Of a stretch of DNA of 64,000 nucleotides, positions 1 through 49,900 are shown one piece after another; within the stretch, counting starts at the first letter, position 1; every line of letters starts with the position of its first letter. Origin of the DNA: Lytechinus pictus. Lineage: Eukaryota. A model generated the notes under the pieces. It was not told the origin of the DNA, did no database searches, and saw nothing but the letters and a program-made list of their open reading frames with translations. The stretch is from NCBI RefSeq assembly GCF_037042905.1, contig NC_087250.1:20462001-20526000 (forward strand), given 5' to 3'. The translations under genes and the position numbers were made by a program.

Positions 1-2838
1 AGCCCGCGCAGCGGGCCGGAGCCCAGGAGCTTACTGTGTAATTCGCCATACCCCACGGTAGTAGCGTGAGGTATGGTCTAAATCATTTTAAGAGTAAATA
101 CTTAAAGCAGAAATTAAGCACTTACCACGATTATATTGTAGTAAATTAATTATTAATAAATTAATTTCTTGATAACTTGGATATATTATTCTCTATGTTC
201 TTCATGTTACATGTTTATATGTCGTTTTGATTCGAAATTAATTGAATCATCACTATTGGTAACTCTATGTGCTGATTTTGATTTCCATTGATTCGCAAGT
301 CAAGAGGTAATAGATTGTTTTTTACCAAAAATTAACAATCTTCCCTCGATCGCCTAGCTCGCTTGGCGAAACACTTCCGAACCGAATCACGTGACTGCTA
401 TGTTTTTTCACTTAATCGAGAGACTCTCGTTGAAGTAAACACAACAGTCGATCAGAATTAGAATTTAACTCTGATTTTATACGATTATCGTGCTTGACCG
501 TTGATTTATTCTAAAGATTAGTCCCAAGCAGGAACTCGTAGAAGTTGATTTTGTAAATTGATCATTCTTTATTAGTTAATTTTAGGTCTAACGTCGCGCG
601 GTTTTCAACCAACATCAGCGCAACGCACCTCTCTGTCTGGCCCGAAGCTCCAGGCAGGGGTAACGTTCACGAGCCGGCTGTCGTCTCCATGAAGGCAAAT
701 TCTGAACGAGTTTTCTTTTCGTCAGTTTTTACTGACAATTTGCTGGAGTTAGCTGCCAATTGTCTCTTGATTCAATATTTTCGCGAAGATAGCTAAATTC
801 CTTGTTTCCATATTGTCATATTTCTTGTTCGTAGATCTAACCTTAACTTAACTTCACGCCAAGCTTTGTCTGGTGTCAGCCAACGGCAATAGCGTATACT
901 ATAGCGTCTGCCTATCTGACGTGTAGGTGTTGTGCTGTAGGCAGCACTATCACTACTTTGTCTTTGCATTGTTTGAGCTCAATTCGGCTCTTACTGGGAA
1001 TTAAAATAATTTATTTTAATTCCTTTAACCTCTTGAATTTGAGCTTATCAGCTGAGTTAGAGCTGTGAATTGGTTTTTTTACCTAAAATATATATCAGAT
1101 CTTTGTCAGTTTGTGATAATTCTGATTTTTGTAAAACTAGCTCGACGACGAATTTAGCCATAAAAATATTGGATCAGAATAATTCCAAAGTGAGAATTTA
1201 ATTAATCCCGAATAGATCTAGTATCTTCATATAGTTTAGGGAATTTTCTTTTGCAGATAATCTTGTTCATCTTTCAGGTGTTTGTAATTTCCTGACTGTG
1301 TATACCTGGAGCCAACAAGTGCAATTGTTTTGCTTTGCCTTTTGACTCGGTGTACACTTGTTTGAACGAGGACTTGGAATTTAATTTCAGGCCCTTAGTT
1401 CTTTGTAGGAAATTTTTCTTGGAGGTTATCCTGGATTGTCTTTTTGTCTGTTTGAAATTCAGGTTTTTTAAGTTGAACTTTTAACAAGCATTGTTAGATC
1501 AGGATTTTTTCTTTGGAATAATTCTTGCTTGTAAATTTGATTTCTATATTTCTAAAGAAAGATAGATCTCAACTGAAGGTACAAGAAGACCTGAATTAAA
1601 TTTTAATAAGGCTCTTGAAAATACTTTAAGCAAATCAACTTTTGATTCTGATTTTAAGTGAGATGTACAGATACTATTGATCTTTGATATCAGAATATTT
1701 GATATCAACATTCTTTGAATTTTTTTTTTCTTCATATGGTTGCTCTGTTAATGTACTTTGGAGCATCATTCTTGCATTGACAAATTGCAATTTTTTTTCA
1801 GACTCGTGAATTCAAACCTTCAGTGAAATACAAAATTCACTGCTGTCATTTTGCGCGAATTGATTTCTAAATAGTCATTTTTAGGCTCATTGCCATTCAC
1901 TTTCATTTTAAGTTGGTAACTTATCCCCATTCTAAAAAAGGAACCAAAAAGAGGGGGAAAAAAAGAAAGAAAATCGGATGTGGGATAAATATGTTTGTAA
2001 ATTGAATTATTGCATTCATCAGGAATAAACGATTATCATTGAATGCTACTCCTGTAATCGTTGAGGCTTCGATAAGTTGAATCCTTGTTAGGTTCTTTTA
2101 ATAGTCGTAGAGTAAGTAAAACTTATTGATACTTCTGCGATTACTCAGAGTAGTACAAGTTTGATACATTCTATTCTACAAGTGTAGTTTCTGAAACTTG
2201 AAGCTGCACTGTAATTTGTAAATATACTTTCACTGAATACATCCATTGCTACAGGAGTGTGTACATTTATTATTAATATTCAGAGTCAGACGCTTGTTCT
2301 TAGCAGTACAAGTATTGCAGTACTTCACTCTTTCCTTGGCAGTAAGTGTATTCAGTGACACAAGATTAAAGAAGCATAAACAAACCTAGTTAAGTTCTTT
2401 CACTGATCTGCAAGCTATATTCTGTTAAGTTACACCTGTAGATCATTGAACTTGAATTTATGACAGTATTTACAAAATGTTTAAGAATATACTTTTGAAT
2501 CACCAAGGTGATCATCAATAATACTTTCCTGAATTTATTTTGGATTTCATAATGATGCAAAGTGACATCGCCAGAGTAAAACAAAGATTAGTTGAAGACA
2601 TTATAGACAGTCGTAATATTAGTAAAGGATACTTATATGAGCATTCACTGGCAAATAATCTGTACAAGCTTGGTTATCCCAGAAATTTGTAGATGAATTT
2701 GTTTATGAGAGGTTTGATTGTTCAAGGATACATTATTTATCTGATCTCGATTTAACAGATCTTGTATATAAATGTGCTGATAAATGCCAAAATAAATATG
2801 CTGAACCCAATACTGGTAGACAGCCTCAGGCTGATAAT

Positions 2839-4203
2839 TTGCATTCATCTTATACTCAGTGTGAATCCAGATCAAACAGTAGGGTTCAGATTACAAATGA
2901 ATATGATTCTTATCCACAATCTTCCTGTCATACCTCCAATGATCATTCCAAAGATGATGGTTATATGGCAATGATGATGCGCTGTATGGCTGTTGAAATG
3001 AAATCATTGTCAGAAGAACTGAAATCATCTAGGCATTCACCTGCTATAGATTCAATGCTTCCGTCCTTAGATCGAGGTTACGATGCCCTGAGATCTTATT
3101 CTCGTGGGTGTACTACTGGTGCGCGAGTGTCCTCGTTGCCCAAGTCCGTGACCTTCGATGGTAGAGGATGTTGGCACACTTTTATATGTAATTTTCAGCT
3201 ATATTCGGAAGATCGCGATTGGGATCAAGCCCAACAGCTCAATGAACTTTGCTTTTGTCTTGAGGGAAGCGCAATCAAATATTTTGCATCGGTTATTGTT
3301 TCTTCCAAACTAAACGTTCCCTATACAGATATTGTCAAGAAGCTTGAGCAAAGATTTGCTTCCAAAGAATTTCCTGTCGCACAATTGCAATTCGATTTTG
3401 CGCAGCAGGCAACAACCGAAACAAAGGGGGAATGGGCCGACCGTGTCCTATCCTACGCTTCACGCGTCTTTGACGGATTGCCTGAGGAGATTGTTGAGAG
3501 GCAAATAGTGCAAAAGTTTTGTCAGGGTTCATTGGACCATGAGGCGGGAAAATGCGCCATCAGATCACGTCCTCGGAATCTCGATGATGCCATTTACTTA
3601 GTTCGGTTGTTTCAGCATCGGCTAAAGTATGCAAGACAAAGGTCTTACGATACTGTCGAGGAGGATCTCAGAAATAACCGTATGGGCATTTCCGGGCATA
3701 CCTCTAATGTTCAGCAGTCCTCCCGTCAGGACAGTCTGGAGGACCGAGTGCCCAATCTGGAGAAGAAGGTTGATATTCAATCTGCTCCAGGGGCACAGAT
3801 GAAGTCCTTCCAGTCCTCAGTCCAGGGATTGGTAACTGCTGTCCCAGAGCTGAATAGGCATACACATTCTCCTTCGACAGAAGACAATGAATCCCAGTTG
3901 TCTTGTCGTGATGTTTGTTTTGCATGCAACAAATCTGGGCACTTTAAGAGGAACTGTCCAGAATGTGTACTAGCAGTAAAACATGTAGATATCTTAAGTG
4001 TAGATGAAGTAACTGTAAATACCACATGTGTAGATGATGTAACTGTACATACTACATGTGTAAGTGATGATACTGTAAATACTATAGGTGTAGATAATGT
4101 AAGTCTTGTAACTGTGTCAGAGGACAGTCGAGCCTCTACTGAGGATACCAAGCATGGGCAGAGTTATCTTGTGCAAATGCTTTGGGGAAGTACCCCTCCT
4201 TAG
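2839..4203 (+). CDS. gag: Ty3/Gypsy-type Gag-like protein with CCHC zinc knuckle
   Basis: 454-aa ORF (frame open from 2659; first ATG near 2965). Capsid-like motifs PKSVTFDGRGCWHTF...W...LCFCLEGSA, QQ...E...WADRV and KFCQG, plus a CX2CX4HX4C knuckle CFACNKSGHFKRNC. No protease, RT or integrase motifs recognised downstream. Confidence 0.85.
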   Translation: MHSSYTQCESRSNSRVQITNEYDSYPQSSCHTSNDHSKDDGYMAMMMRCMAVEMKSLSEELKSSRHSPAIDSMLPSLDRGYDALRSYSRGCTTGARVSSLPKSVTFDGRGCWHTFICNFQLYSEDRDWDQAQQLNELCFCLEGSAIKYFASVIVSSKLNVPYTDIVKKLEQRFASKEFPVAQLQFDFAQQATTETKGEWADRVLSYASRVFDGLPEEIVERQIVQKFCQGSLDHEAGKCAIRSRPRNLDDAIYLVRLFQHRLKYARQRSYDTVEEDLRNNRMGISGHTSNVQQSSRQDSLEDRVPNLEKKVDIQSAPGAQMKSFQSSVQGLVTAVPELNRHTHSPSTEDNESQLSCRDVCFACNKSGHFKRNCPECVLAVKHVDILSVDEVTVNTTCVDDVTVHTTCVSDDTVNTIGVDNVSLVTVSEDSRASTEDTKHGQSYLVQMLWGSTPP

Positions 4204-13605: not shown

Positions 13606-15053
13606 TTACTGGTTAATTTGTTTGTTTCCTTCCCGTCTTTTCAGTTTCCTCATTTCTCTCTGTTTCTCACACCTCTTCCGATCCTCTTCACCCATCCTCG
13701 CCATCTTCTTCTTTCCGCATCCATGCGCCGCCTGCCTGGACTTTTTAGTTACAGCGCCACCGGCGGCAGTGGATGGTATAGTTGTGACGTCATTGAAGGG
13801 AGTGGAGACGGTGGGCTTCTTGAGGACGCATTTGCCATAGCCGTACTCATAGAAATAAGAATCTGGCTCTGCAGACGGCTCGACGTAGCATGCTAGACCA
13901 TCTCCGCATCTACCGGCCTCATCGAACGCACCGCCACATTCCTCGCCTTCCAACTGATGAGAGAGAGAAGGAGGGGGGGGGGGCAGAGAGGGAGAGATAG
14001 GAGAGTGAGGGGAGGGAGAGAAAGAGATAAAGAAAGGGGACACTGGCAATTATATACATGATATTTGATAAGAAAATGGTTTCAGTGATTGATGAGAATA
14101 AGAATATTGACTGAAATAGGATCATAATTTTTCCTGACTACTATAATTCAGAAAACAAAATCATAAAAATATGTGGCAAAAATTGAACGGTTCTTCCTTT
14201 CGTTCTCTTTTCTTTCTTTCTTTCTTTTTTTTTTTCTTTCTTTCTTTCCTTTTTTGTTCTTTCTTTCTTTCGTTCGTTCTTTTGTTTCTTTCTTTCGTCC
14301 TTTCTCTTGTTCTTTCTTTCGTTCTCACTTTCTTCCTTCCTAATTTCTTTCTTGTTTGTCTTTCTTTCTTTCCTCCCTCCCTCCCTCCCTCCCCCTTCCT
14401 CCCTTCCTTCCTTCCTTCCTGTTCCTTCCTTCCTTCCTTTCTGTTACCTTCGAGCAATCGCTCTTACAGCAGGAGCAGATATCCCATATGACTTTCGACC
14501 CGGCCGGACACTCGACATCTACCGGACAGTTTTCATCACGCCAGTCTTTGAGGGTTGAGGTATTAATGCCATACTCATGACAGATACAGCTCAGGCAATT
14601 TCCCCTTGAAATTAAAAAAAGAAGAAATGAACTTCATCTTATTTTCTGGTAACTATTTTATGTTTTAATAGAGATGTGAATAAAATTATTTCTATTGAAG
14701 ATTCGACAGCGTATAGCAAAACGTAAATAAGTGTAGACCTTAAAAAATGATCTAATTTCCTAAAACCTTCACCAGTATTTTTTTATTATTATTTCTGCCA
14801 TTTTTAAAACAAACTATTGTTCAGGGTAAACTACCCCTTTAATCATATTTATAATTAGTCTAAATTATCTTTATTAATCATAATTGATTCCGAATGAATT
14901 AAAGGGATGGATACTTTCGAAACACAATTAATCGGAAACATTTTCTGTCTCTAGTATAAGACCTCAGATTAGTTTTTCGGACCATATTAGTTCTTACCTG
15001 TCAAATAAAGCCACGGTTGCTATGACAATAAAAATCAATTTAGAAGACATCAT
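13606..15053 (-). CDS. Secreted single IGFBP-N-domain protein, paralog A, with basic tail
   Basis: Exons 15053-14998 (signal-like MMSSKLIFIVIATVALFD, phase 2), 14604-14448 (RGNCLSCICHEY...CPVDVECPAGSKVIWDICSCCKSDCSK, phase 0) and 13953-13606 (LEGEECGGAFDEAGRCGDGLAC...GKC plus Thr-rich and K/R-rich tail, stop). All GT-AG and in frame; 12 Cys in the mature domain. Probable 5'UTR exon with donor at 15655 and TATA-like motif at ~15770. Confidence 0.88.
14195..14440. repeat. Pyrimidine-rich (CTTT/CCTT) low-complexity tract in a gene A intron
   Basis: Seen directly in the sequence. Confidence 0.85.
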
Positions 15054-29800: not shown

Positions 29801-31630
29801 ACCCCTCTTTTGTTAAAATTTTACAGAAATCCATCGGAATTAGTATACAGTATAAATATATCCTTCAATTTCTATTTAGAAATTACCCAAACTCCCCCGA
29901 TCGGCTCGCTCGCCTCACTTGTCTTATTTCAGTCTGTATTTTGTTATTGAACATATGCCATATTCTTGCACCCCCTAGAATTATTTAAATAGATACAACT
30001 ACTTGAATATATGAATCAGAGTATTACAGTCTCCATAAAGTATTTTCCTTATAACAATTCGCTAATATTCTATGCAGAACTACAGAAAGTTAATTGTGTA
30101 TAACCTGTTTGAAGTTTTACTCCAATGTTCTTTAACTCCGACACTCGAATTATAATGATCGTTAAATACAAAGTAGGCCTATATTATTTCATGTGAAGAA
30201 ATTTAGTCAAGAAGGAAAATGAAACACGCTTTCGCATCATTTTTTTTTCACCTTCACTTTTTCTCTTCACGCCCACCTTATTACCCACAGGTCGATCTCG
30301 CTGTCGTGCCCCTGTTGGGCCCACGACGCTGACCCATCAAACCCGCTGTCATACAGAGAGACGTACTGCAATGACCTCAACCTTCAATGTCCTTCCGGGT
30401 CAGAGGTCATCAGCGACCACTGCGGATGCTGTAAAGTATGCTCACATGTGAGTATAGTATGCCATAAGAAACCAAAACTAATTAGCTGGAGACCCGGGGA
30501 GCCTCCAAAGGAGTCCAAGAGCAGGGGTCCGCATGGCCTTTGATGACATTATGTCCATGCACGTAAAATCTGGAGAATTGGGTTGTGAGACTCAGGGTAG
30601 GCCTATTTGGCGGAATGAGGGGGAGGGGGGGGTGAATTTTTACTATACTATCATACAGGCTTCACAATCCAGACAGGTTGAGCTTGTTCCCATTAAAGAC
30701 ATGACATACCATAAGACGCTAATGGGTAGCGAATTTGATAAAGGGTTCGTAAATATTTTCATATCACAAAGTGAATGGAGTTTTCAATGAGAATAGCGTA
30801 GTGCCCCAACCATAATGAGTCCATGGGGCTTATGTGTTTATAGACATAAAAAAAAACCGAGGTCCTCGATCAGTTTATATTTGATCAATGCTGATATTTT
30901 GATATTTTTAGGGCGATGCCGCTTTTAAAATAAGGACATGGAAATGTTTGAAAAGGAGACAATAAAATATTCCAATGCCAGAAAAAGGAGCATCCGATTC
31001 GATGCCAAATATTAGGGCTTCCAAAGCCATGCAAGGTCTTGGATTGCGATAGATGATCAATTTTTCGATGACCTTTCGTTCTTTCGTCAAATCTGGTTGT
31101 GCTCAAAACTAAAAATGCTTGCCTCCTTTTGAATATAAACAAAGTTATCTTATGTTTTATTTACTGATCAGGTTGAAGATGAGGAATGCGGGGGACCTTG
31201 GAACGTACTAGGAACTTGCGCCAAGGACTTCGAATGCGTCGACCCAAAGACGAAAGCTCCAATCCACATGGAGAAATATATCGTCAATATCCCTATGGGA
31301 GTCTGCAGAAGAATCAAACGATCTGGCGCAGGTCAGGCGCCCTCTACGCCCGAGCCACGTCCATTCAAACCTGAGTTCCCTCCTGGTTTCTCATTAATGG
31401 ACTTCTTCGGACCTTTCGGTCCACAGCGGCCATTGGATAACGAAAAGCCATTGGGTATCAACAAGAAGACGAAGAAGACAAAGAAGGACAAGAAACTGAA
31501 GAAGGATTTGAAGAAGAAGGACAGAAAAGAAAAGAAGGAGAGGAGAGATAGGAAGATGAAGGAGATTAGGAAGCAGAGTAGGAGAAAAGTGAGCAACGAA
31601 GTTAGCAATGAGATTCCCAAGTACTTCTAA
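26873..31630 (+). CDS. Secreted single IGFBP-N-domain protein, paralog B, with Pro-rich then Lys/Arg-rich tail
   Basis: Exons 26873-26925 (MTFLEVVLLLLLSCMIE, phase 2), 30291-30447 (RSISLSCPCWAHD...YCNDLNLQCPSGSEVISDHCGCCKVCSH, phase 0) and 31172-31630 (VEDEECGGPWNVLGTCAKDFEC...GVCRRIKR...KYF*). GT-AG and in frame; CGCCxxC motif; 12 Cys. Confidence 0.9.
27262..27362. repeat. 27-bp minisatellite, about 4 copies
   Basis: Repeat unit GTGAACAGACTCCGCTTCCACACT-like, repeated in tandem. Confidence 0.85.
27973..28495. mobile_element. TIR MITE with internal TAACCCCGTACTAT repeats
   Basis: TACCCTTTTTACAC...GTGTAAAAAGGGTA ends; lies in a gene B intron. Confidence 0.75.
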
Positions 31631-36199: not shown

Positions 36200-36880
36200 T
36201 CCCCCTCTCTCGTTTGATAGTAATCTTCATCTCTCTCTTTTCTCTCCTCCAACACACACTCCCATCACTCTCACTCGCCCCCACCCTCTCTCTTTCTTAA
36301 TTTTTGACCCTCATTTTCTCTTTTCCATCTATCTCTCACACAATTATGCACTCTTTCTACCATTCCCCTCTCTCTCTCACACACCCACACACACATCCTC
36401 CTCTCTCTTTCTCACCCCCACACACAACACACTCTTCCTATCCCTCCCTCTCTCGCACACACACACTTCCTCCCCTCTCTCTCACACACAAACACACACA
36501 CCCTCACACACAACGCACTCTTCCTACACCTCCCCTTCCACTCTCTCACACACGCTTCCTCATCTCCTTTCTCACATTCACACATACAGCACACTTTTCT
36601 CTCCCCTCCCTCACACACACACACACACACACACTTCCTCCCCACTCTCCAATACTCTCTCACACAATCCTACCCCTCTCTCCTGTCTCACTCACACACA
36701 CACACACATTTTCCTCCCCTCCCGTCTTTCCATCACCCCCTCTTTCTCTCTCTCTTTCTCTCTCTCTCCCTCTCTCTCACACACACACACACCCTCACAC
36801 TCTCTTCATTCGACCTCTCTCTTCCTCACTCCCACCATTTATCCCCATCCCTCTCTATCTTATTCATTGTATCACCCCTT
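36200..36880. repeat. (CA)/(CT) compound low-complexity tract
   Basis: Seen directly; it explains the spurious 192-aa ORF. Confidence 0.9.
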
Positions 36881-37715
36881 GAAGTTGTAAGCTACCCCTT
36901 TTAGTCACTTTATCAAGTATTACTAGAATCAGTGACAATATTCTCATGGATATAATTTATTTTATGATAATTCGATATTTACATATTGAAATAAATAAAT
37001 CAAGATAATACAAACTACAGCTGACTTAACACATAAATTTGTCTTTATATGATATTCCACAGCCCCTTTTACATTTTCAAGAAATATATTATATTTATTT
37101 TTTACAACACACTATCGTACCCTGTAAACTATAATCATGAGTGCCCATGTGCAGTCCAAAAGTCAAAGTACATAAATAAAAATGACCTTATTAAGATCAC
37201 TGCGTTAATTAACTTGTCATCGTAGTCGCTCGCTGTTAGGCTCCCCCATCAGCACATCACTATGCCACCGGTCACCCCCTCTCACCCCCCCCAAAAAAAA
37301 ATAATTAATTGCTTCCCTCTTGTTTCTCAAGGATTCGGGGGAAATACTTGTCAGTCCATTCCTAGACATGCAAAGTGTGCGTCAGCAAGAATTTCCACAA
37401 GCAGGAAAGAGAAGATTTCAGTAGCATTAATGAGTTGTCCATACGTCGTAGAGAGTGGGTCTTTAAGATAAAGAAAATTCATGTCGTATTCTTTTCAGAT
37501 TGAAATAAAACATTGTTAAGCTGCTTTAATGAGTTGTTGATTCACAAGTTTTCCTTTAACATCAAAAGGAAGCACTTAAACAGCATCGATGCGTTGTCCA
37601 TGCGCCACATATAGAAGACGTCCTATTGACGAGGCGTGCATCCATTTAGCATGTTGAGAACGAAAAGCATTCAAGCAGCATTGGTGAGTTACATATGACC
37701 TGTTGAGAGGGCGCC

Positions 37716-37841
37716 CTACGGAGTGCAGTATCCCTTTGAGAAAGGATTCTTGATGACCTTGCCCGTCTCGTCCTTGCAAGCTAGACCCTTTGAACATACT
37801 CCGAAGACCTTCCATGGTCCTCCGCACTCCTCTCCTTTCCC
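37716..37841 (-). CDS. Second IGFBP C-half terminal exon (3b): alternative last exon of paralog C, or an orphan exon
   Basis: Acceptor CTGTTCTTTTGATCTGCAG, then phase-0 GKGEECGGPWKVFGVCSKGLACKDETGKVIKNPFSKGYCTP* (126 nt, 4 Cys). Homologous to exon 40850-40563. Confidence 0.8.
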   Translation of the reverse strand, partial: GKGEECGGPWKVFGVCSKGLACKDETGKVIKNPFSKGYCTP

Positions 37842-39002
37842 CTGCAGATCAAAAGAACAGGGAAAAGACAGTATGTCAATTCCAAATATGGAAGCAATTC
37901 AGTCTTAAAGAACAGTATCTGGGGTCAATAACCAGTGAGTCTGTTTATCCAGAAGGTTTAGATGATGAATCGTTGTCCTGTCTTATGCAAATGAAGAGTC
38001 TCAAAGGACAGTATCTTGGATTAACAACCAGCCAGTCTGTTGCTTCAGAATGTTCAGATGATACGTAGTTGGTCTATCTGCATGCAAATGGAGAGTCACA
38101 GAGGACAGTATCTCGGATCCACAACCCGACAAGCCGGGCTGTCGCCATGGTCAAGGTTGCTGATCTGGTTTAGGCTAGGCCTATGCGTTCCTTAGCATTT
38201 CAATTTAAAACCATTCTGATGTTCAATGACTCCGGATGATAAATGCAAAAAAGGAGGAAAATGAACAGTTCATTATTTTACTTGTCCGTGACGTCTTCAT
38301 GCTTGATTTGTAGACTTCAATGGTATCTACCAAAAAGGCCGGTGTGCAACGGATAAAATGCCACCTTCGAAACGTTGAGAACAGCAAAACCACAACAGTC
38401 AGCCTTCTTGGGGCATAATGTTTGGCAAGTTATAAGTCAACGTGTGTCCTAAATCAAAAGTCTGAGTATATACTAAGTTGTGTGTAAAATATGTGTAAGC
38501 AGCAGAGACCCCGTTGAGTCATGTGGTAGGTTAGTCAGTTAGTTTTGTAGAGATTGTCAACGTCCAATGGAAAATTCTCAAAGTGTATGTATGTAGCTTA
38601 GGGGTCCCGAATTAAAATCTGGTCACTGGTCAGGTTCAAGGAAGCCATACAGCTGGGATGTTTAGCCAAGTCGATAGAAGGTCGGTAGGGAGTCGCATAC
38701 GCTTGCAAGAGTCCGCAAGTAAGTCGTAATGCAATCTGAACCATCATAGAACAGGATGTAGAGTCATTGTATATATAGTCCGTCTATGCAAGCTTACCAC
38801 CAGTTCCTGTAAGGTCAAAGGTCAGACAGTCAATATCAGTTGGTCCTATACTTTGTAAATTTTGGTAGATGTTCATATAAATGTCAGCAGGTTCTGGGAC
38901 CCGGTCTGGGACACGTTCACAATAAAAAATAGCATCATCTCGATATCCTATATCATGTACATATTATTCTTACATGTCTTATGCAGGTAATTATTCATTC
39001 AC

Positions 39003-39157
39003 TTTAATAATAATTGCTGGATTTATGAGGCGCTTTTTGCCTGAGGATACAAAGCATTTGCTATTATTACCCCGGCTTTAGCTCGAGCTACCATCACCGG
39101 CGCTTAGTGCATTCAAGGAATTAATCCTGCCGGTTACCCATTCACATCACCTGGGTC
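39003..39157 (-). mobile_element. 5'-truncated SINE fragment
   Basis: Shares ATTATTACCCCGGCTTTAGC...GCATTCAAGGAATT...CACCTGGGTC with 60436-60665 and 61958-62332. Confidence 0.6.
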
Positions 39158-39981
39158 ATGATTTTACAAAATCGGGTTAATCTAACTGCAAAAAATCTAC
39201 GACGATACAGTAACAATTAGGCTTGGTATACAGACTTTCTCATGAAATTAGCAGGCCTATTAAGTACAACTATTTTTATTCATATAGAATTTACTTACTT
39301 ATTTATTCCTATAATAATAGTAAAAAATACTGTCAACTGTGATATTCATCACATTCCATACACGAGTGCCGGTATGCATATGCTCTCTGTCGTAAGATTA
39401 TCAAATCCCTCATTTTAAACTCGTCACATTTAATGAAAATTGACTGCGATAAAAACATAATAAACATGATAAAGCTACAAAATCAAAAGTAAGACGTCAA
39501 AGGCCATTTTAAAGTCATATTATTTAAGATATTTCCTCGGGAAGAAAGAACATAAAGAATGAGGTAGTTTTCTATAAGGGTACGTCTTGCGATTGTTCTC
39601 AAAAAGCCATCGATAACAGCGTTACTCTACGATTGATGATTCCTAAATAATATCTCCCATGACAATCGACCCACGTAAATTACCCCCCACAACAATTAGC
39701 AGCTGTACCTTACTTATTTTCACAGCATAAAAGGATTGTGTAAACGACAAAAACTGTCGTCACACATTTTGCAGTTATCAGGAATAAAAGCCAAAAATGT
39801 TGAATTTATGGCGTTTTGATTACAGATCAATAGACATTGAATGAAAATGAATCATATTCAGTGGCAATGCCCTCTGCTGACTCTCCATATGCTTTCAGTT
39901 TATGTTATTAAGATATTCATATCTGACAGAGAATTCCCTCGATCAATTTCTAAGTAGTTCATCATGTTTAGCCCATCCTAC

Positions 39982-40216
39982 CACTGTTCAAAATAATTTA
40001 AACAACGCTGTTTACTATGTGAATCGCACAGTAGTTTTTCAAACAGTTTAAACAAGTGTTTAAAATCTTAAACAACCATGCTAAAAATTATTGATAATTA
40101 TTCATTTGAATTTAAACTTTGTTGTTTAAGATTTAAACACTTGTTTAAAATGTTTAAACAACTACTGCGCGATTCACATATAGTAAACAGCGTTGTTTAA
40201 ATTATCTTTAACAGTG
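39982..40216. mobile_element. Palindromic CACTG-ended MITE
   Basis: CACTGTT...AACAGTG ends with long inverted arms. Confidence 0.7.
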
Positions 40217-40562
40217 TATGTAGAGAAGCCCATTGGAAGTTATAAGCCTTGATGTTACAAAAAAAATTGCACTCAGCAATAAGAAGAACATATTAAATCA
40301 CGTTTAATAAGGAATGAAAATATTATTGATTAATCTTTTAGAGAATATTCTTTATTGTCCGTTGACTAACTGGATTATGGTCTTTGCTCCAGGCTAGGAA
40401 TCTGGTTTAAGATCTGGTCTACTAGGTCCTTAGTGTAAGATAGACCTGTCAGTAATAGGTCCAGGGTGGGTCTACTGATTCGAAGTGTAGTTTGGAGAAT
40501 GGTCTTATTGTCTAGGACCCCTGTCTAAGACCTGATCTAGCAATGTCCTTGAGTATAAAGAC

Positions 40563-43500
40563 CTACCAGTAATAGGTCCAGGGTGGGTAGTAAGGATTCG
40601 GAGGATAGTTTGGGGTCTCAGGATAGGTCGGTGTATCAGGGTACGTTGGTTGATCGGGATACGTCGGTCTGTGTGGATAGTTCGGAGTCTCGACGGTCTT
40701 CTTCGGACTTTTACAAGCCCCAATTCTCATTCCGAATGGGTTCATGCTGTTCGTCGAAACCACTGTTCCGGTCTGTTTGTCCTGGCATTCGAGTCCCTCG
40801 GAGCACGTCCCCGCTGTCTTCCATGGTCCGCCGCATCTTTCATCTATTCCCTAAAGGTCAAAGGTCAATGTTTAAGGTTAAGGACAGGGATAGAGAAGTG
40901 CCTATAATAATAATGAACAATGATAATACATGCGATTTGTATATAGCACACTTTCCGTCTTGATTAGATGCTCAAGGCGCTTCAGAGCAGAACAATTAAC
41001 AAAAACAATTTACATATAATACATGTCTGAACAATAAATCAAAGTCTATCAAAAAGCACACTTATACAGGTATGTTTTCAGGTTGCCCTTGAAGGTGGTC
41101 ACTGAAGTCTGGGTTTTCAAACTATGTGGGAGAGAATTCCACAGGCTAGGCCCTGCACGAGCAAAGGCCTGTTCCCCACATGATTTCTTGGCAAGTGGAA
41201 TTTGTGAGAGATTAGATGATGATCATCTACGTAACGAGACGGCGAGAATATTGATCTCACAGTGCCGAATTATAGCATGTTTGCAAGTCGACGTGGCGAG
41301 ATATTTTCACTTCGCCAAGTCGATTTTATATCCTTGTTATGTTGAAATGATAAGATACATTGTCTTGCCAAGTCGACTTAAAAAAGGTTGTTTGTCGTCA
41401 TGGCGAAATAGCCTACTTGATAAATGTAATTCATCATGGCGACATTATATGTTCATAAAGTCCTCTTCGCAGGGCAATGTGTCTCATAATGTCGACATAC
41501 AAATTATCATAAGTCGACTTGACAAATATCCTATCTCACCATGTTGTCTACATGCAACTTTCCACGAGTCGACTACACAAGATATCATGTGTCGACACGA
41601 GATGTTTTATTAGCTGACTTGGACTTGGCAAGATAAACGTATCTTGCAATGTCGACATAATAATCTCTTTAAGCAAAATGACACTCTAAAGCTTCCGCAA
41701 ACAAGGCCTCGGACAGTGCTCCTTTTTTGTTACACTGCCAGAATACGGTAAAGGAGATCTCGCTCTGTGATGATTTACGAACACAGTAAATGTATTGTCA
41801 AATGTCCATCATGACAAAGAACGTCAGATAAATCTTTGTCGAAAATTGGTAATCAAATAAAAACGGCAATTTACTTCTTGATTCTTGAAGTCAGCTCTGA
41901 AACTTAAGACAAAACTGCTCATTTGGCTCACCAATCACACTGTTAGAAAATTTATCCTTAAAATAAAAGAAGTTCTTGCAGCAGAGTCTCGAGAACACAT
42001 GTAATCTTACCAGATTGCTTAATTTTACAGGAAATTGGTATTTGGTGTATGGAACCTTACAAAGTTCCTTCAAGAAAACAGTCTTCCCCTTTTTAAACAG
42101 ACCTGTTCTGTTAAATTGCAGAAAAATTCCTGTTTGATGAATTTACAGAATGATTCTGTTATAGCTATCTGCAAAAACTTCTTTTATTTTAAGTATAGAT
42201 TTTCTAACAGTGCATATTTCCGACCAATTTGGGGATGCTGTGTGTATAATTCTTCATAGTCAGCACCCCCATGTATCCTTGAAGATATGTAAAAATGAAA
42301 CAAAAATGTAACCAAAAAGACCTTCATTTTGCAGTGAAACCCTTTTTTTTTTACTATACAAAGTTCAAGAAACCAATTTTACGTCTATTTTGTAAAGATT
42401 TTTTTTTGTTTTTCCAATTTCTCCGTTTCAATTTGACTTCCATTTTGTAGTGAAATTTTTTTTTTTTTTGCTTTTCAAATTTACATTAGCACCCCACTTA
42501 AAATAATCTTTCACAGGGCCCTGAAGACCTCCCAGTGTTTGAATTGCTATTTTAAAAATAATTATAAACAAAGCGACATGTTATTTTTAGTCAGCTGACT
42601 TTGTTAATTTGACGAACATTTTCAGTATATATTTAATCCGTTCTTGATCCTCTGTGTGTCACAGAGCGAAAACTTCCTGATATCATTCACTCTTATTAAT
42701 AATAGTTGGGCAAAAAATGCCCGACTTTTACCCAACCCTGGGCAACAAACTGTCCACGCAACTATTGGTTAAAATCTGTCCAAATTGGGTAATAAAAACT
42801 AATAATTGGGTAATAAATTTGCTCAATTAGATAATAATTGCCCAGAAAATATATGTATTTTTTACAAACATATATTACCCAACACAGTGGACAGTATATT
42901 GCCCAACACGTTAAGTGTGTAGGCCTGTAAACGCGATGCCGTGCTGACATATCGAATAGCATAGAGGCCTTGGGAAGTAGAGTTATTAGGTAAGGACCTA
43001 ATAAGGTTCTATATGACATTTGCTCCGGTTACAATTGCTCCGATGAAAAATCTGCAAGATTATCCAAACATAAATCCTAGCCCCCAACACTAAATAAACC
43101 CTCATCTTAATATTTTCATTAGTCTGAACCAAAAAGTCTATTGCACTCCTAGCTATAACCCTATGCCCTCTGAGATATTACAAGACCTAAGCAAATGTCG
43201 CAGGAGCAAATGTTGTGTCACCCCTAAGGAGTCACCCCGCACCCCCCCCCCCCCTCCCTCCCCATTGTACTGTCGATTAGAATTTATCCTTGAAACGTTC
43301 TTAGGAATACCTAAAGATGCATATAGATCTTGGCTATCTAAAATCAAGAAAACTTGCATTCTCGGTATTTCTTTAACCAACCACATTCTTGGTTCAAATA
43401 CGAACCAAGCAACGGTTGGATAAAAAAAAGAGAATCTCAAGTGACATTGAAATAAATTTTGGTTTAACCAATAATTGATTAATAATTTAACCAACTTATA

Positions 43501-46500
43501 GGATGGTTAAAAAACATGGGACCTTTGGCAACTCCATGGTAGATGGCGCAATTCAATATGTCAAATACATTGAAGCAAAATTTACTTATTAAAATGCACA
43601 AACCCTTCAGAAGGCTAAACTCTTTCTTAGCATTTCATACCTTTTCACCTTAATTCTCTCCCCCCCCCCCATTTCCAATCAATCTTAACAATTAATATAA
43701 ACGCATAGGTTTGGTCATCCGTTACCGCCTCCCCCCCCCCCCTTGTTTGCGAATATTGAGAGATTTGAGGTACATTTTGTTAATCAATTTATATTGTAAT
43801 ATGAATTGGTGAAACGCTTGTAATACCTGCGGTTTTGTTTTTAAAAAAATTGAAGATTAAGATTATCAATCACTTTAATCTTACTCGCTAGGATTAGCGG
43901 ATTAAGTCAGATTTGCTTTCAAAGTACATTGTAATGATTTGTTGTTCGAATAATTACAAATGATCAGTGAGTTTGATGGCTAATGAACTTGGATAGATGT
44001 TTCAACCGGTATTACTCCGTATTACTCTGACAGAGGTTTCAGCAAATTAGTGGCAAAATGAAACAAAATTGAATTGGCGGAAAAAATAAGCATTTTAAAA
44101 TACAAGGTACTCCAAAAAGAACAGTAAAAGAAAACTACAAATTTCATCCAATCAAAATAAGTCAAATATTTGTAACATTTCAGTCAAATCTTTTTGTAGC
44201 CATATAGATATATCTCTAGGGTTGAAACTCACCGGTGTTTTGTTAAAGTAATGTTCGAATTGCCCTTTTTAAACTAGTTATCCAAATTGCTGAGAGGGGG
44301 CGCTTTGTGTTTTTAGAATAAAATTCCAATTTTGATGGAGAATCAACGAATGGTTCAAGGGAGATTGAATAGTAACTGTTTTGACAGATTGGAATGTTAT
44401 AAATCATTTTAATATATTTTATATTTATTTCCCAAACTCCTTTCAAAGTGTACAGTCTTGCTCATAGCGTAATCAACGTGGAGTGTACATGACAAATCTC
44501 GTACAAGTCCCCAGCGAGCAAAGAGCAACATTTTTTTAAAACAAAAATCTGCTTTTGTTATAGAATTGGGCATATATATTGAAAAACAATAACATCATAT
44601 TTTACCCTTTTCTCATGTTTCCCTTGTTTTATAATTCTCTTTTTTTTTGGTCGTGGAAGTTTGTTTTGGGGGTGGGCCGTGGCCCCAAAGCCCCAACCCC
44701 GTTCCGGATCTGTACACCAGCTGTAGGGGATCAAGGTTGGAGGAAATATGGCCCGTGCCCCCCCCCCCCCCCTTGAGAGCCATAAAACAAAGTTCACGAT
44801 TCTCTTTTTTTTTGGTCGTGGAACTTTGTTGTTAGTGGAAAATGTCGTGCATTCGAAAGTGTAGACCTGTTTTTCCTTTATTTTTTTTTATTTCTTAACA
44901 AAATTGCCCCTCCCTGGATTCTCCCCTTGAGGAAGACACAAGAGAGAGAGAGGGAGGGAGGGGGTATTTACCTTAGAACATATTTGACAGCAACCGCATG
45001 CATCTAGTATAGATCGTTGGCCTGTTGGGGGTTGGGGCTTCCCCAGGGAGGGATAAGAGAAATAGAGGGGGTGGGGGTATTTACCTGAGAACGTATACTT
45101 GACAGCAACCGCATGCATCTTGGACAAGTCGTTGGCCTGTTGGGGTTTGGGGCTTCCCCAGGGAGGGATAAGAGAGAGAGGGGGTGGGGGTATTTACCTG
45201 AGAACATACTCGACAGCAACCGCATGCATCTAGGATAAGTCGTTGGCATGACGGGGGTTGGAAGAGAGAGGGGGATGGGGGTATTTACCTGAGAACATAC
45301 TTGACAGCAACCGAATGCATCTAGGACAGGTCGTTGGCCTGTTGGGGGCTGGGGCTTCCCCAGGGAGGGATAAGAGAGAGGGGGTGGGTATTTACCTGAG
45401 AACATACTTGACAGCAACCGAAGGCATCTAGGACAGGTCGTTGGCCTGTTGGGGGTTGGGGCTTCCCCAGGAAGGGAAAAGAGAGAGAGAGGGGGGGGGG
45501 CGGGGTTATTTATCTGAGAACATACTGACAGCAACCGCATGCATCTTGGACAAGTCGTTGGCATGTTGGGGGTTGGGGCTTCCCCAGGGAAGGATAAGAA
45601 TGAGATGGGGTGGGGTATTTACCTGAGAACATACTTGACAGCAACCGCATGCATCTAGGACAGGTTGTTTGCCTGGTGGACATGATGGGGGTTGGGGCTT
45701 CCCCGGGCATCTGGCATTTGGGAGTTCACTCCAACATGGACAGCTCAGTCCCTGGCAGCTGATTAAATAGATAAGCATTTCTTTAAGGACAAGTACAACC
45801 TGGTAATCGGGATGATTAGTTGGTTTTAATTAAAATAAATAGAGAAAAGATATTGTTAAGGTCGTAGGAAAATCCGTCATAGAATGACGAAGTTATGAAT
45901 TTCAGAATTTTTTTATTAATTATTATTTTGTGACTTAACTGATGAGCGAGGAGCTCCTCTCTTGTGTGATGTAAAGTCCCCAAAATGCAATTAAAAAATG
46001 ACAGCGAAAGTCAGCGATTATATTTCTTGCGATGAAAATCGGCCTGCATGTATATATCATCAGATACATCATCAAATACTAGTATATCATAATTTTTATT
46101 TATTTATTTATTTATTGGTATATATGCACATAAAAATTGACCAGCAGCACAAGCTGAAAGGGTGCATTACATACTAATAATCCATTTAAAAGGGGAATTT
46201 ATCGCACATGATATTTTGGAAAACTCCTTGCATATGACGTCACGTTACAAAGTTTTTTTAGATAATCAAAACTCTCAAATTCTTTGATGAATTTTCACCA
46301 AACCTTCTTGAATATAATTCTTTAATTTTCTGCTTTTATCAAAACCACCTAATCGCCACGGTGAACTGCCTCTTCAATTCACTATTTGGTCGACTGATTC
46401 ACGCAAATTTTTGATAATTGATTTAAAAAAAAAGTAAAAGGCAAACTAATTTGAAAGATGCTATTGTGAACTTGGAGAGTACCTTGTTTATGAAGTTCCA

Positions 46501-46940
46501 CTCACATTTCTTTATGACTGAATAAATGAATAATAATAAATAGCTCCAGGAATTATCAAATAACCAATCATAGTAATGTTTCTCTCTAAAAATCGTCTGA
46601 AGAATAAAATAGATTTTAGAATGATTTTTTTTTTCAAAGTGACACTTTCTTCCTCTATGTCAGGTAGGGCTGCATAATTATTTCACTTTCTTCATAATAA
46701 CCAATCTCTAAATAATGGATAATCATGGTGGATATTAAAACCTTATTTTGATTGTTTTCCCCATATTTGTATTATTCGAGATTTTCTTTTTTCCTGAAAC
46801 TAAAAAAATAAATTTTGCAGTTAAAATCATTTTGGTGTTTATATGTGTGAAGAAAAAGAACTATTATTTAGGGATAATACTTACTTCTCAATGACCGCAA
46901 TTACAACCGTCAGTGCTAGTAGTTTTAGTTTTGCAGCCAT
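40563..46940 (-). CDS. Secreted single IGFBP-N-domain protein, paralog C, with Tyr/Pro-repeat tail (isoform 3a)
   Basis: Exons 46940-46885 (MAAKLKLLALTVVIAVIE, phase 2), 45758-45623 (NCQGLSCPCWSELPNARC...SCPPGKQPVLDACGCCQVCSQ, phase 0) and 40850-40563 (GIDERCGGPWKTAGTCSEGLEC...GACKSPKK...PNYP/PTYP repeats...PWTYYW*). AATAAA at ~40351; probable 5'UTR donor at ~47485. Confidence 0.9.
41938..42212. mobile_element. CACTG-ended MITE (uninterrupted copy)
   Basis: CA|CACTGTTAGAAAA...TTTTCTAACAGTG|CA with a 2-bp TSD. Confidence 0.8.
44940..45622 (-). repeat. Tandem array (6 extra units, 91-118 bp) derived from the 3' half of gene C exon 2 plus its splice donor
   Basis: Each unit repeats ...GATGCATGCGGTTGCTGTCAAGTATGTTCTCAG|GTAAATACC. 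Donor-equivalents at 45513 (GT>AT), 45395, 45288, 45197, 45084 and 44971. Confidence 0.9.
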
Positions 46941-49900
46941 CTTTGAACTCTGTGTTGGATGATTAAAAAAAACCATTAACAACAATTGTCGTACCAATTA
47001 ATGGTGTTCACATATGGGGTGAAGTACTAACCCTAGAAATTAAACAGAAATAGAATTACGGTGACGACGCGTGGGCAAAAGATGCACGAGAAATTAATAA
47101 AAAAAGTATATTCATTGGAAAAGGAATATAAAGAAAGAAGTATAAAACGGAGTGATCTTGATCATATAACATTATAATATCACCATGATCATGATAATTA
47201 GTCAATATGTTTTTTTTAATATGTCGTCATATTTCGCCTTGCCTCTCATATATCCCATGTGCCGCCAATGATTAGTCTGCAGGCACAGACCCTCATTGAA
47301 ACCTTGATCAACAAGTGGGTTTCCACGCAAAGACTAACACATACAAAACTTGCTGTTGAGAGAGGGCCTTCAGTACACAAAAGGCATCAGTAGGCTGCAC
47401 ATTCAGACCCTTAACTCGAGTCAAGGGTTTGCACAGCAGACTAGCAAATGAATTAAATAGAGTAATTGAGATATTGAAAACTCACCTTCTTACTCCGATA
47501 GTCTACAAACAAAGCAATGTGAATTGCGTGAGGTATCCCTATCTATCAGCTAGCTGCATTCGACGAACTGCAGTTGTCTACGCATCCGATCCCTTTCGCA
47601 TACTAAAAGGCAGGAAAGTGCATTACGCATTTATGTACCAGTGTAAAATCAAACGTTAATGCTGCACGTGATTAGAATTAAATCCATATGGATTAATACA
47701 TCTCTCACTTGTATTAATCGTGGTTAGACGTCTGTCAACACTTTTAGTCTCGAAGATTATCTCTGCCTTTTTTCGTGGAAATTTCAGGATTGTGTAATCA
47801 GAGGAAGGCGAATGACCTGTACTTTTCATTTTTGTGCATATATAGACTATTTGTAAATAAAGGTTTATTCCACCCCAGTAAATGTTGATTTGAATCAAAA
47901 GAGAAAAATCAAACTAGCATAAATCTGAAAATTTCAAATCAGAATGTAAAATAAGAAAAATATGCAATTTTAAAGTTTTGCTTATTTTTTTTACAAAACA
48001 TAACTCAGTATGTATGATATGCAAATGTAAGAGTCGATGATGCCTCTCACTCTTTCTTTTTTTTTTTTAGTTTGAAGTAAGGATTTTTATTTATTTTTAC
48101 AATAATGACCAACTTGACTGAACCACAAAATAATTAAACAATGACAATTCCATATGGCATGTGTTCAGGAATACCTTGTTTGAATTTATTTTGGTTTTAT
48201 TTCATTAATTTCTATATCCATTTTTTGTTTGAACATACAAATAACAAAAACATAAATACAAAATACAATTCCACTGGTGGATCCAGGGGGGGGGGGCACA
48301 TCTGGTCCATGCCTTCCCCCTTGAGAGGCATAATAAACATTTACAATGTAAATTTGCCGTTCTAACACAAATGTGCCCCCCCCTTGAAAACGAGGACCAT
48401 TTTTTTCTTGCTTGTCAAATTTTCCGTGGACGAAAATGACCTTAAATTTGGGTGAAAACATTTTTTAAAATTCATATTTCATACAATATAATACAAAATA
48501 AGTGGAGAGTAGGTGATGCCATCAGTCCCCCACAATAGGAGCACGGCGTAAATATAACTGTTTTTTAATTAAGTGATTGTAAAGCATTTCGTAACTTTCT
48601 TATTTCACATCCGATTTTGATGAACTTTGATGCTTGTGTCATTTTACACTTTTTATTCAACCCAACTGCCTCTTGGATTGGACTTGCCCTTTAGATATTC
48701 TAATTCGCTCTATTTTAAAAGGTGGCATGTAGACAAAACGTACTTAATGAATAGAAGCCTGCAATGATTGGGTGTAATTGCATGTGCGGTGGTTGATGAA
48801 TTTCGATTGGAAGGGGGACAGAGTTTGCCAACCATATTTTTTTCCAATCGAAGAAATAAACAAATTATTAAAAAGAGAATGAAAATAGGGAAAGGATAAA
48901 AAAAATTGGGGCGAAAAAAAGAAAAGAAAATGGAATTTGTTTTGGCTTGGTCTTGTAAATATCTCTATATTAAAGGAGCCCCTTTAATAAAAGGGAAGTT
49001 TTGAAGAATTTAAGGGGCAAGCCCCCCCCCCCCATCCCGCCCTGTTTATAATAATGGCCCGATGCCAAGCTTCTCATTATCACGTGATTACGATGACCAT
49101 GATAGTAACAAAGACAGGAAATTAACTAATTAAAATTATAATTAGCAATTAAGTTTGCGGTAGAAAACTTGAGCCATTTCGATTTTGAAATAAATCACAA
49201 TTGAGAGAGATAGCCGGTTTTAAACACCTCTATCTTGCACTTTTTAAAGTCTATTTTTAAGCCCCCCCCCCTACCGATCCGACATTGGGTCTGCAATATA
49301 TTCGTTTTAAATAAAATGTTTTTTTTAAGATACACTATTTCAAATGTTTCATATATTTCGTATATTAAGGGAAATTGTGAACGCCCCCCATAAAAAGGGG
49401 CGGATGAAGTAAGCGGGTGTTTATGGGAGATTTACCCCTCCCCCGAAAAAAAAACTCCGCAATGATTAAAATTGTATCAAATTATATAAGATGAGAATCA
49501 TAAATGCATAAAAGTGTGGAATTTTGGTTCATCGCACAATTCAGGTGATTGTATCAATATTATATAAACATTTAATGTTATTGATGAACACGCTACAATT
49601 AAGATGGTGAGAAAAAAATATCTTAGCATGCTCCTGATTCTCAGGGGAGCGTCTGATGAAATGACCTGTCAGACGTTTAATCCGACAGTTACCATGGTAG
49701 CAGTGCTTCACAGCCAATCAAAATCAAGGAACTTTGTCAGATCTGACAACGCGTTAAAGCAAAATATTTATGAAATTATCCCCATTCATCATAAATTTCC
49801 AAATGCAACACGATTTAGTGGAATAATTAAGAGTAAAGTGTTGGAAGAATAATGGGAAATAATAATAATCGTGAGATTTCCGTTATACATTGAACGTACT

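What the first reader, a model, noticed from the sequence alone, without database searches (positions are those of the whole stretch)
37716..40850. Duplicated terminal exon may let gene C switch between a tailed and a tail-less protein
Seen: 2.7 kb downstream of exon 3a there is a second intact phase-0 exon (GKGEECGGPWKVFGVCSKGLACKDETGKVIKNPFSKGYCTP*). It has a good acceptor, all four Cys and a stop two residues after the last Cys. I found no convincing signal exon or exon 2 between 3a and 3b, and each has an AATAAA downstream (~40351; ~37094). Inference: mutually exclusive last exons join one N-half to two different C-halves, giving a Tyr/Pro-tailed form and a minimal, Lys-rich, perlustrin-sized form.
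Basis: partly seen in the sequence, partly recalled or inferred. Interest (0 to 1): 0.78.

Follow-up and report, generated by a model that had tools for sequence, protein, structure and literature searches.

The report
Duplicated exon gives urchin protein two endings
A small secreted sea-urchin protein of the insulin-growth-factor-binding type can finish its single cysteine-rich domain with either of two old duplicated exons, and the second exon is so far annotated only in a shifted reading frame.

Summary
Exon 3b (37841-37716, minus strand) is an intact phase-0 copy of the core of exon 3a, with four Cys and a stop two codons after the last one. No signal exon or exon 2 lies between them.

The gene is RefSeq LOC129262846 of Lytechinus pictus. 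Its annotated protein already ends in 3b, but 3b is joined behind 3a and read out of frame.

In one of four runs laid (X1), one contig joins exon 2 (45623) to 3b (37841) at depth 16. Another joins exon 2 to 3a (40850) at depth 11.6. Both have GT..AG ends, and the two depths add up to about the exon 1-2 joint's depth of 26.4.

3a and 3b have saturated synonymous sites (pS 0.90) but pN 0.27. This also holds past the stop of the shifted frame.

So one N-half does meet two C-halves, but 3a and 3b are not strictly exclusive last exons. 3a can be terminal, skipped or, per RefSeq, internal.

The predicted 105-residue form is absent from the protein collection searched.

This is a new member of a known kind: alternative splicing born of tandem exon duplication. 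Interest is moderate.

The parts
46885..46940 (-). Exon 1, coding part: the ATG at 46940, 18 codons plus 2 nt of a hydrophobic signal-like peptide, then donor GTAAGT
   Evidence: Sequence. Joint 45758>46885 in X1 (depth 26.4, side 67) and X14 (depth 2). The spliced product equals P0012.
45623..45758 (-). Exon 2 (136 nt): the N-half of the IB domain with 8 domain Cys including ACGCCQVC, then donor CAG|GTAAAT
   Evidence: Pfam IGFBP PF00219 positions 7-35 of 55, E 4.8e-5. Joints. The last 29 nt are unique to this donor among the tandem copies.
44940..45679 (-). Tandem array (period 107-115) of partial copies of the 3' part of exon 2 plus the start of intron 2, each with a donor-like CAG|GTAAAT
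   Evidence: TRF, tblastn and the donor list. One search shows no joints from these copies.
40563..40850 (-). Exon 3a: a C-half with 4 Cys plus a Tyr/Pro-rich tail, and stop TAG at 40565-40563. Donor TG|GTAGGT (the exon ends at 40567 when spliced) overlaps the stop. The internal form is 284 nt.
   Evidence: Translation. Joint 40849>45622 at depth 11.6 in X1. The product with the internal donor equals RefSeq P0012.
40351..40356 (-). AATAAA downstream of 3a
   Evidence: An X1 contig covering 40402-40664 (depth 11.3) runs unspliced through the 3a stop and donor. Depth is 4.2 at 40234-40387.
38794..38806 (-). Start of an alternative exon that, joined to the 3a donor, adds NWW and a stop
   Evidence: The computed tail YYWNWW equals the tail of L. 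variegatus isoform X2, P0014. One search shows no joint to it.
37716..37841 (-). Exon 3b coding part in frame 0: 41 codons with 4 Cys, stop TAG at 37718-37716. In the +1 frame, after 3a, it gives 19 codons and a stop at 37783-37781.
   Evidence: Joint 37840>45622 at depth 16 in X1. pS 0.90 and pN 0.27 against 3a.
36944..37715 (-). 3' untranslated part of exon 3b, with AATAAA at 37099-37094 and 36961-36956. The true 3' end is not fixed.
   Evidence: X1 contigs cover 37323-37840. X14 contigs cover 36944-37292 and 37294-37844.

Best explanation
This is the Lytechinus pictus gene LOC129262846. It encodes a small secreted protein made of one IGFBP-N-type (IB) domain.

The domain is split by a phase-0 intron after ...CGCCQVCSQ. 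An old tandem duplication left two exons for its second half, 3a and 3b.

Three outcomes follow.
1. Exon 2 is spliced to 3a and translation stops at the TAG. This gives a 159-residue precursor with a Tyr/Pro-rich tail. In run X1 this form is unspliced at the 3a donor.
2. 3a is skipped and exon 2 is spliced to 3b in frame 0. This gives a 105-residue precursor, about 83 residues with 12 Cys if the signal peptide is cut after Gly22. It has no tail and is more basic.
3. The RefSeq form uses a donor that overlaps the 3a stop codon and joins 3a to 3b. Because internal 3a is 284 nt (284 mod 3 = 2), 3b is then read in the +1 frame and adds only 19 residues.

In every case each protein carries exactly one C-half.

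Shown here: both junctions from exon 2 in one RNA data set, the identity of form 3 to RefSeq, and a coding-type substitution pattern in frame 0 of 3b.

Inferred: that the 105-residue protein is made and secreted, and that swapping the C-half changes what the domain binds.
For: run X1:
- Joint 37840>45622: depth 16, one contig, 29 letters on the short side, ends CT..AC, which is GT..AG on the minus strand.
- Joint 40849>45622: depth 11.6, one contig, side 29.
- Joint 45758>46885 (exon 1-2): depth 26.4, close to 16 + 11.6.
- A 29-letter stub on both contigs fits a k=31 graph forking at the end of exon 2. This is my inference; the word length of 31 comes from the tool text.

the last 29 nt of exon 2 match only the donor at 45623. 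The tandem copies differ by 1 or more of 29.

3b is single-copy in the 811.7 Mb assembly, so a retrocopy source is unlikely.

there are four exon-3 copies in the window but only three complete exon-2 copies, and none lies between 3a and 3b.

- The flanks of 3a and 3b share no similarity apart from an 18-nt core.
- pS is 0.90 and pN is 0.27 over 39 codons.
- Codon positions 1, 2 and 3 are identical at 28, 27 and 14 of 39.
- Beyond the +1-frame stop, pS is 0.96 and pN is 0.28 over 19 codons.

- Computed 1-2-3a(internal)-3b is identical to P0012 (XP_054756808.2).
- The 1-2-3b product has all 12 domain Cys aligned with the 3a form and with the S. purpuratus ortholog.

the S. purpuratus annotated tail is a 3b homolog. 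It is compatible with an open frame 0 carrying CGGPW..G.C, with up to 14 of 20 identities. None of 2000 shuffled tails reaches 14.

P0012 passes Pfam IGFBP at 34.2 bits against a cut-off of 28, over residues 33-86, which span the exon 2/3a boundary.
Against: The exon 2 to 3b junction was seen in only one contig of one run.
- X14 shows the exon 1-2 joint but no exon 2-3 joint.
- The two raw-read RNA runs (X18, X19) gave almost no reads on the gene.
- X1 is labelled RNA only by a guess. Its three GT..AG joints are what show that it holds spliced RNA.
- The short side of both junctions is 29 letters, below the 30 that the tool text names as a caution for metagenomes.

No 3a>3b joint was seen in any of the four runs. 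The RefSeq form is therefore unconfirmed here, and RefSeq does not list the 2>3b form.

X1 has depth 5-9 over much of the 3a-3b interval but none at 43283-45424 of intron 2. I cannot explain this.

No nucleotide sequence of a relative could be fetched, so frame-0 conservation across species is shown only as compatibility.

There is no protein-level evidence. Signal cleavage was not predicted by any tool.
Confidence: 0.72

Rival explanations
1. 3b is only what RefSeq says: the last exon after 3a, read in the +1 frame or serving mostly as 3' UTR. Its frame-0 reading frame is a relic of the duplication, and the exon 2 to 3b junction is non-productive exon skipping.
For: RefSeq models in three species join 3a to 3b: P0012, P0013 and P0009/P0010. 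The 105-residue form is absent from the protein collection. The junction was seen in one of four runs.
Against: In X1 the 2>3b joint is at least as deep as the 2>3a joint (16 against 11.6), and no 3a>3b joint is seen.

Synonymous sites between 3a and 3b are saturated, yet pN is 0.27 and all four Cys are kept. This includes 19 codons beyond the +1-frame stop, where the +1 frame imposes no constraint.

The +1 tail is only 8 of 19 identical between L. pictus and S. purpuratus, while the preceding 11 residues of 3a are 11 of 11 identical. The conserved stretch of the tail (SAED) overlies ECGGP in frame 0.
Confidence: 0.17
2. 3b is the last exon of a separate fourth gene whose 5' exons were missed.
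For: The window holds a cluster of three paralogous genes, so a fourth would not be odd.
Against: No exon-1-like or exon-2-like sequence lies between 3a and 3b. The only upstream partner seen for 37841 is 45623. RefSeq also assigns 3b to this gene.
Confidence: 0.03
3. The 2>3b contig is an assembly or library artefact, such as a chimera, template switching or a DNA retrocopy.
For: It is a single contig with a 29-letter anchor, and the run's kind is a guess.
Against: The break falls exactly on canonical GT..AG at a phase-0 boundary. The two sides share only 4 letters. 3b is single-copy in the assembly. The anchor matches the true donor better than the tandem copies do. Depths add up across the three joints.
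Confidence: 0.06

Closest known systems
RefSeq models of the same gene and its orthologs: L. pictus XP_054756808.2, L. variegatus XP_041466557.1 (X1) and XP_041466558.1 (X2), S. purpuratus XP_030848646.1 and XP_011663217.1
   Same: Same locus. Exons 1, 2 and 3a are the same, and 3b is used as the last exon. The computed product is identical to XP_054756808.2. Isoforms that differ after ...YYW are annotated.
   Different: All annotated forms contain 3a and read whatever follows out of frame, giving 19 residues, NWW or nothing. None joins exon 2 directly to 3b. No protein of 73 residues or more with the frame-0 3b peptide was found, and the only hit to exon 2 was the cluster with 3a.
Mutually exclusive or alternative exons born of tandem exon duplication (Hatje et al. 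2017, PMC5740500, passages read; Martinez-Gomez et al. 2021, PMC8373072, listing and start of abstract only)
   Same: Neighbouring homologous exons with the same acceptor phase encode the same part of a fold. Joint inclusion shifts the frame, which is one of the mechanisms that paper lists. Junctions from the upstream exon to each copy are seen.
   Different: These are terminal exons, each with its own stop and poly(A) signal, and Hatje et al. set terminal exons aside. The exons differ in length (95 against 41 codons). Joint inclusion here is annotated as a productive protein with a short shifted tail, not as a decay target. The 3a donor overlaps its stop codon.
Single insulin-like growth factor-binding domain protein-1 (SIBD-1), PDB 3zxb/3zxc, 77-78 residues
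   Same: It is the nearest solved chain by sequence to P0012, at E 0.0057 over residues 42-87 across the exon 2/3 boundary. It is a protein that is essentially one IB domain, about the size of the predicted 83-residue mature 3b form.
   Different: The sequence match is weak. SIBD-1's source organism is recalled, not shown by any search.
Perlustrin (abalone nacre protein with IGFBP-N homology)
   Same: A small 12-Cys IB-domain protein of an invertebrate.
   Different: No perlustrin sequence was compared here, and there is no evidence of a role in mineral for this gene. The resemblance is a lead only.

Membership tests
IGFBP N-terminal (IB) domain, Pfam PF00219 | Profile match above the curated cut-off (28 bits) | tested here: met
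   P0012 (exons 1-2-3a-3b) scores 34.2 bits, E 3.9e-8, over residues 33-86 and profile positions 7-55 of 55. Exon 2 alone scores 24.3 bits over profile positions 7-35.
IGFBP N-terminal (IB) domain, Pfam PF00219 | The same match for the exon 2 + 3b form | not testable with these tools
   A spliced sequence could not be handed to the Pfam tool. 3b alone gave 0 families. In the alignment all 12 domain Cys and the CGGPW..G.C..GL.C motif of the 3b form align with the 3a form and with the S. purpuratus ortholog.
IGFBP N-terminal (IB) domain, Pfam PF00219 | Twelve Cys including a CGCC motif (pattern recalled) | tested here: met
   There are 13 Cys in each precursor and 12 after a presumed cut behind Gly22. 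ACGCCQVC is in exon 2.
IGFBP N-terminal (IB) domain, Pfam PF00219 | Binds insulin-like peptides | not testable with these tools
   Needs a binding assay.
Tandem-duplication-derived mutually exclusive exons (criteria of PMC5740500) | Neighbouring exons with sequence similarity and the same reading frame | tested here: met
   54% identity over 39 aligned positions, E 1.9e-10 within the window. Both exons are phase 0.
Tandem-duplication-derived mutually exclusive exons (criteria of PMC5740500) | Junction reads from the flanking exon to each copy, bridging the other | tested here: met
   45623>40850 and 45623>37841, one contig each, in one of four runs laid. There is no downstream common exon, so only the upstream side applies.
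Tannem-duplication-derived mutually exclusive exons (criteria of PMC5740500) | No joining of the two copies, unless it shifts the frame | tested here: inconclusive
   No 3a>3b joint appears in the four runs. RefSeq does join them, and that join shifts the frame because internal 3a is 284 nt. The result is a stop in the last exon, not an obvious decay target.
Tandem-duplication-derived mutually exclusive exons (criteria of PMC5740500) | Internal exons of similar length | tested here: not met
   Both copies carry stops and poly(A) signals. They are 95 and 41 codons long.
Alternative last exons (alternative splicing coupled to alternative polyadenylation) | Each exon has its own stop and poly(A) signal and is reached from a common donor | tested here: met
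   Stops at 40565-40563 and 37718-37716. AATAAA at 40356 and at 37099 and 36961. The common donor is 45623. Actual cleavage sites are not shown.

The most novel reading that the evidence does not exclude
The 3a/3b pair is a conserved three-way switch of camarodont sea urchins, older than the Lytechinus-Strongylocentrotus split. A 5' splice site overlapping a stop codon, together with a terminal exon that codes in two frames, decides the outcome. The secreted IB domain then ends with a Tyr/Pro-tailed C-half, with the same C-half plus a short shifted tail, or with a different, bare, basic C-half.

From recall, the second half of vertebrate IGFBP N-domains carries the main ligand contacts. If that holds here, the two C-halves would give one gene two binding specificities, chosen by tissue.
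Probability: 0.3. Interest if true: 0.55.

Novelty: new member of a known kind. Interest (0 to 1): 0.42.

Why it matters
It corrects how a RefSeq gene is read in at least one sea urchin, and probably in three. The last exon is not just a 19-residue out-of-frame appendix. It is an old, selected alternative second half of the only domain the protein has.

It is a compact natural case of half-domain swapping by tandem exon duplication, with one exon used in two frames. It gives a clear test: one N-half with two C-halves, assayed for binding to urchin insulin-like peptides.

It does not open a long-standing question. The mechanism is of a known kind.

Tried and rejected
1. The raw-read RNA runs X18 and X19 gave no usable information. 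472 of 476 and 553 of 555 laid reads lay only partly on the stretch, at repeats, and the exons had almost no depth.

2. Runs of coded organism B held 0.04-0.10 of the words of 37000-37900.

3. Pfam on 3b alone gave 0 families, and 3a alone gave nothing relevant.

4. phmmer of 3b against 1.84 billion representatives gave 8 hits at E <= 0.001. Four of the five I fetched are invertebrate IB-domain proteins, three of them with several such stretches (P0003, P0004, P0007, P0008). One is an unrelated protein made of repeats containing CGGPW (P0006), three were not fetched (P0001, P0002, P0005), and none is a 3b-type ortholog.

5. I tested whether the exon at 38806 is a decayed third copy of exon 3. 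The only match is a 14-nt exact match of the acceptor region, scoring 28 against a shuffle maximum of 25, which is not convincing.

6. A separate fourth gene was rejected.

7. The first isoform assembly used exon bounds one base off and gave nonsense. It was corrected.

8. The search of earlier findings by place and by sequence returned nothing.

9. Paper searches gave little:
- 'single insulin-like growth factor-binding' with 'sea urchin' gave 0 papers.
- 'venom protein 302' with 'urchin' gave one preprint on Tripneustes gratilla (10.1101/284224, passages read). It reports an IGFBP-like 'Venom Protein 302' transcript in adult tissues, highest in tube feet and pedicellariae, and absent in larvae. 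Orthology to this gene was not shown.
- 'Lytechinus pictus' with 'alternative splicing' and 'isoform' gave 6 papers, none on this gene by title.

10. Folding the 105-residue form was not attempted, because a spliced sequence cannot be handed to the structure tool.
Full report
**What is in the sequence**

On the minus strand, 37841-37719 reads GKGEECGGPWKVFGVCSKGLACKDETGKVIKNPFSKGYCTP and is followed by TAG. It is preceded by a good acceptor, cctgttcttttgatctgcag.

Exon 3a (40850-40566, then TAG) has the same start, GIDERCGGPWKTAGTC..., followed by a Tyr/Pro-rich tail.

A tblastn search of the exon peptides against the window gave these results:
- Exon-3-type copies: 3a, 3b, one on the plus strand at 31181 and one on the minus strand at 13950.
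- Complete exon-2-type copies: only three, at 45751 (minus), 30301 (plus) and 14594 (minus).
- Between 3a and 3b: nothing like exon 1 or exon 2.

**The gene**

Exon 1 runs from the ATG at 46940 to 46885, followed by donor GTAAGT. Exon 2 is 45758-45623, followed by donor GTAAAT.

Exon 2 matches Pfam IGFBP (PF00219) positions 7-35 of 55. The phase-0 intron therefore cuts the domain in two.

A word-index search with exon 2 returned one cluster. Its representative is XP_054756808.2, 'uncharacterized protein LOC129262846 [Lytechinus pictus]', 178 residues, here P0012.

I spliced 46940-46885, 45758-45623, 40850-40567 and 37841 onward by coordinates. The product is identical to P0012. RefSeq therefore already uses 3b, but as the exon after 3a.
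- The donor TG|GTAGGT overlaps the TAG stop of 3a.
- Internal 3a is 284 nt, which is not a multiple of three.
- 3b is then read in the +1 frame as GKERSAEDHGRSSEYVQRV, with a stop at 37783-37781.

The orthologs show the same design:
- L. variegatus isoform X1 has the same tail.
- L. variegatus isoform X2 ends in YYWNWW, which matches a small exon starting at 38806 in this window.
- S. purpuratus has a 135-residue form ending in ...YYW, and a 154-residue form with the tail AQGSSAEDRGTSMEHARRI.

P0012 passes Pfam IGFBP at 34.2 bits (cut-off 28) over residues 33-86, across the exon 2/3a boundary.

**RNA evidence**

The run search used 37000-37900 and listed 20 runs. I laid four of them on 36500-47200.

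| Joint in run X1 (Logan contigs; RNA by a guess) | Depth | Contigs | Short side | Ends |
|---|---|---|---|---|
| 45758>46885 (exon 1-2) | 26.4 | 1 | 67 | CT..AC |
| 40849>45622 (exon 2-3a) | 11.6 | 1 | 29 | CT..AC |
| 37840>45622 (exon 2-3b) | 16 | 1 | 29 | CT..AC |

CT..AC on the plus strand is GT..AG on the minus strand.

- The two downstream depths sum to 27.6, close to the exon 1-2 joint's 26.4.
- A 29-letter stub of exon 2 on both contigs is what a graph of 31-letter words would leave at a fork. This is my inference.
- The last 29 nt of exon 2 match only the donor at 45623. Look-alike donors in the tandem array of intron 2 differ by at least one letter.
- 3b is single-copy in the 811.7 Mb assembly, and the two sides of the joint share only 4 letters. 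A retrocopy or a graph chimera is therefore unlikely.

The limits are plain:
- There is one contig per junction, in one of four runs.
- X14 shows only the exon 1-2 joint, at depth 2.
- The two raw-read RNA runs have essentially no reads on the exons.
- No run shows the 3a>3b joint of RefSeq. In X1 a contig covering 40402-40664 (depth 11.3) runs unspliced through the 3a stop and donor.
- X1 has depth 5-9 over much of the 3a-3b interval but none at 43283-45424 of intron 2. I cannot explain this.

**Is frame 0 of 3b under selection?**

- The flanks of 3a and 3b share nothing except an 18-nt core, so the duplication is old.
- Over 39 aligned codons, pS is 0.90 (saturated) and pN is 0.27. 3a and 3b are each other's closest relatives among the four copies.
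- Codon positions 1, 2 and 3 are identical at 28, 27 and 14 of 39.
- In the 19 codons beyond the +1-frame stop, where the RefSeq frame imposes no constraint, pS is 0.96 and pN is 0.28.
- Between L. pictus and S. purpuratus the +1 tails share 8 of 19 residues, while the 11 residues before them are identical. The shared SAED overlies ECGGP in frame 0.
- The S. purpuratus tail is compatible with an open frame 0 carrying CGGPW..G.C, with at most 14 of 20 identities. None of 2000 shuffled tails reaches 14. This shows compatibility only, because I could not fetch the DNA of any relative.

**Reading**

One N-half does meet two C-halves. The 1-2-3b product is 105 residues with all 12 domain Cys aligned.

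| If the signal peptide is cut after Gly22 (assumed, not predicted) | 3b form | 3a form |
|---|---|---|
| Length (residues) | 83 | 137 |
| pI | 8.5 | 6.7 |
| Tyr | 1 | 9 |
| Pro | 12 | 26 |

3a can be terminal, as seen in X1. It can be skipped, also seen in X1. Or it can be internal, per RefSeq, with 3b read in another frame.

In every case the protein gets exactly one C-half. That is the logic of duplicated exons kept exclusive by frame incompatibility (PMC5740500, passages read), although that study set terminal exons aside.

**Comparison with what is known**

- The 105-residue form is not in the protein collection. The 3b query against longer proteins found none, and the exon 2 query found only the cluster with 3a.
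- The nearest solved chain by sequence is SIBD-1 (3zxb, E 0.0057), followed by the HTRA1 N-domain (3tjq, E 0.017).
- My paper searches found nothing in print on this gene. A Tripneustes preprint reports an IGFBP-like 'Venom Protein 302' transcript in adult tissues and not in larvae (passages read). Orthology to this gene is unshown.

**Verdict**

This is a real feature. It is a new member of a known kind, with an annotation-level correction and a neat two-frame twist. Interest is moderate.

Noticed in passing
window 44940-45679 (minus strand, intron 2 of the gene): About six tandem partial copies (period 107-115) of the last ~70 nt of exon 2 plus the first ~40 nt of the intron. Five keep a GGTAAAT donor (CAG|GTAAAT at four, AAG|GTAAAT at 44972), at 45396, 45289, 45198, 45085 and 44972; the copy at 45584-45525 has no such donor. 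Several keep an open ...DACGCC.VCSQ frame. No joints from them were seen.
   Followed up: partly
window 13768-14594 (-) and 30301-31627 (+): Two further paralogous IB-domain genes with the same split between exon 2 and exon 3. The plus-strand one has a long Lys-rich tail. With the gene studied here they form a cluster of three.
   Followed up: partly
window 38794-38806 (-): A small exon start that, joined to the 3a donor, gives the NWW-stop tail annotated in L. variegatus isoform X2. Its acceptor region repeats 14 nt of the 3a acceptor region.
   Followed up: partly
window 39982-40216: A MITE-like inverted repeat, with arms of 40-49 nt that are 92-93% complementary, just downstream of the 3a poly(A) signal. 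Summed contig depth there is in the hundreds to over a thousand, as for a dispersed repeat.
   Followed up: partly
window 39059-39157: A short element with very high RNA depth in all four runs. Raw reads have loose ends on both sides, so it is a dispersed expressed repeat rather than part of this gene.
   Followed up: no
window 2659-4200 (+): A long open frame with a CCHC-type knuckle (C..C....H....C), which looks like a retrotransposon gag.
   Followed up: no
window 37925-40387 against 43283-45424: In run X1 the interval between 3a and 3b has contigs at depth 5-9, while the upstream part of intron 2 has none. The cause is unknown; it could be read-through past the 3a poly(A) site or slow removal.
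   Followed up: no
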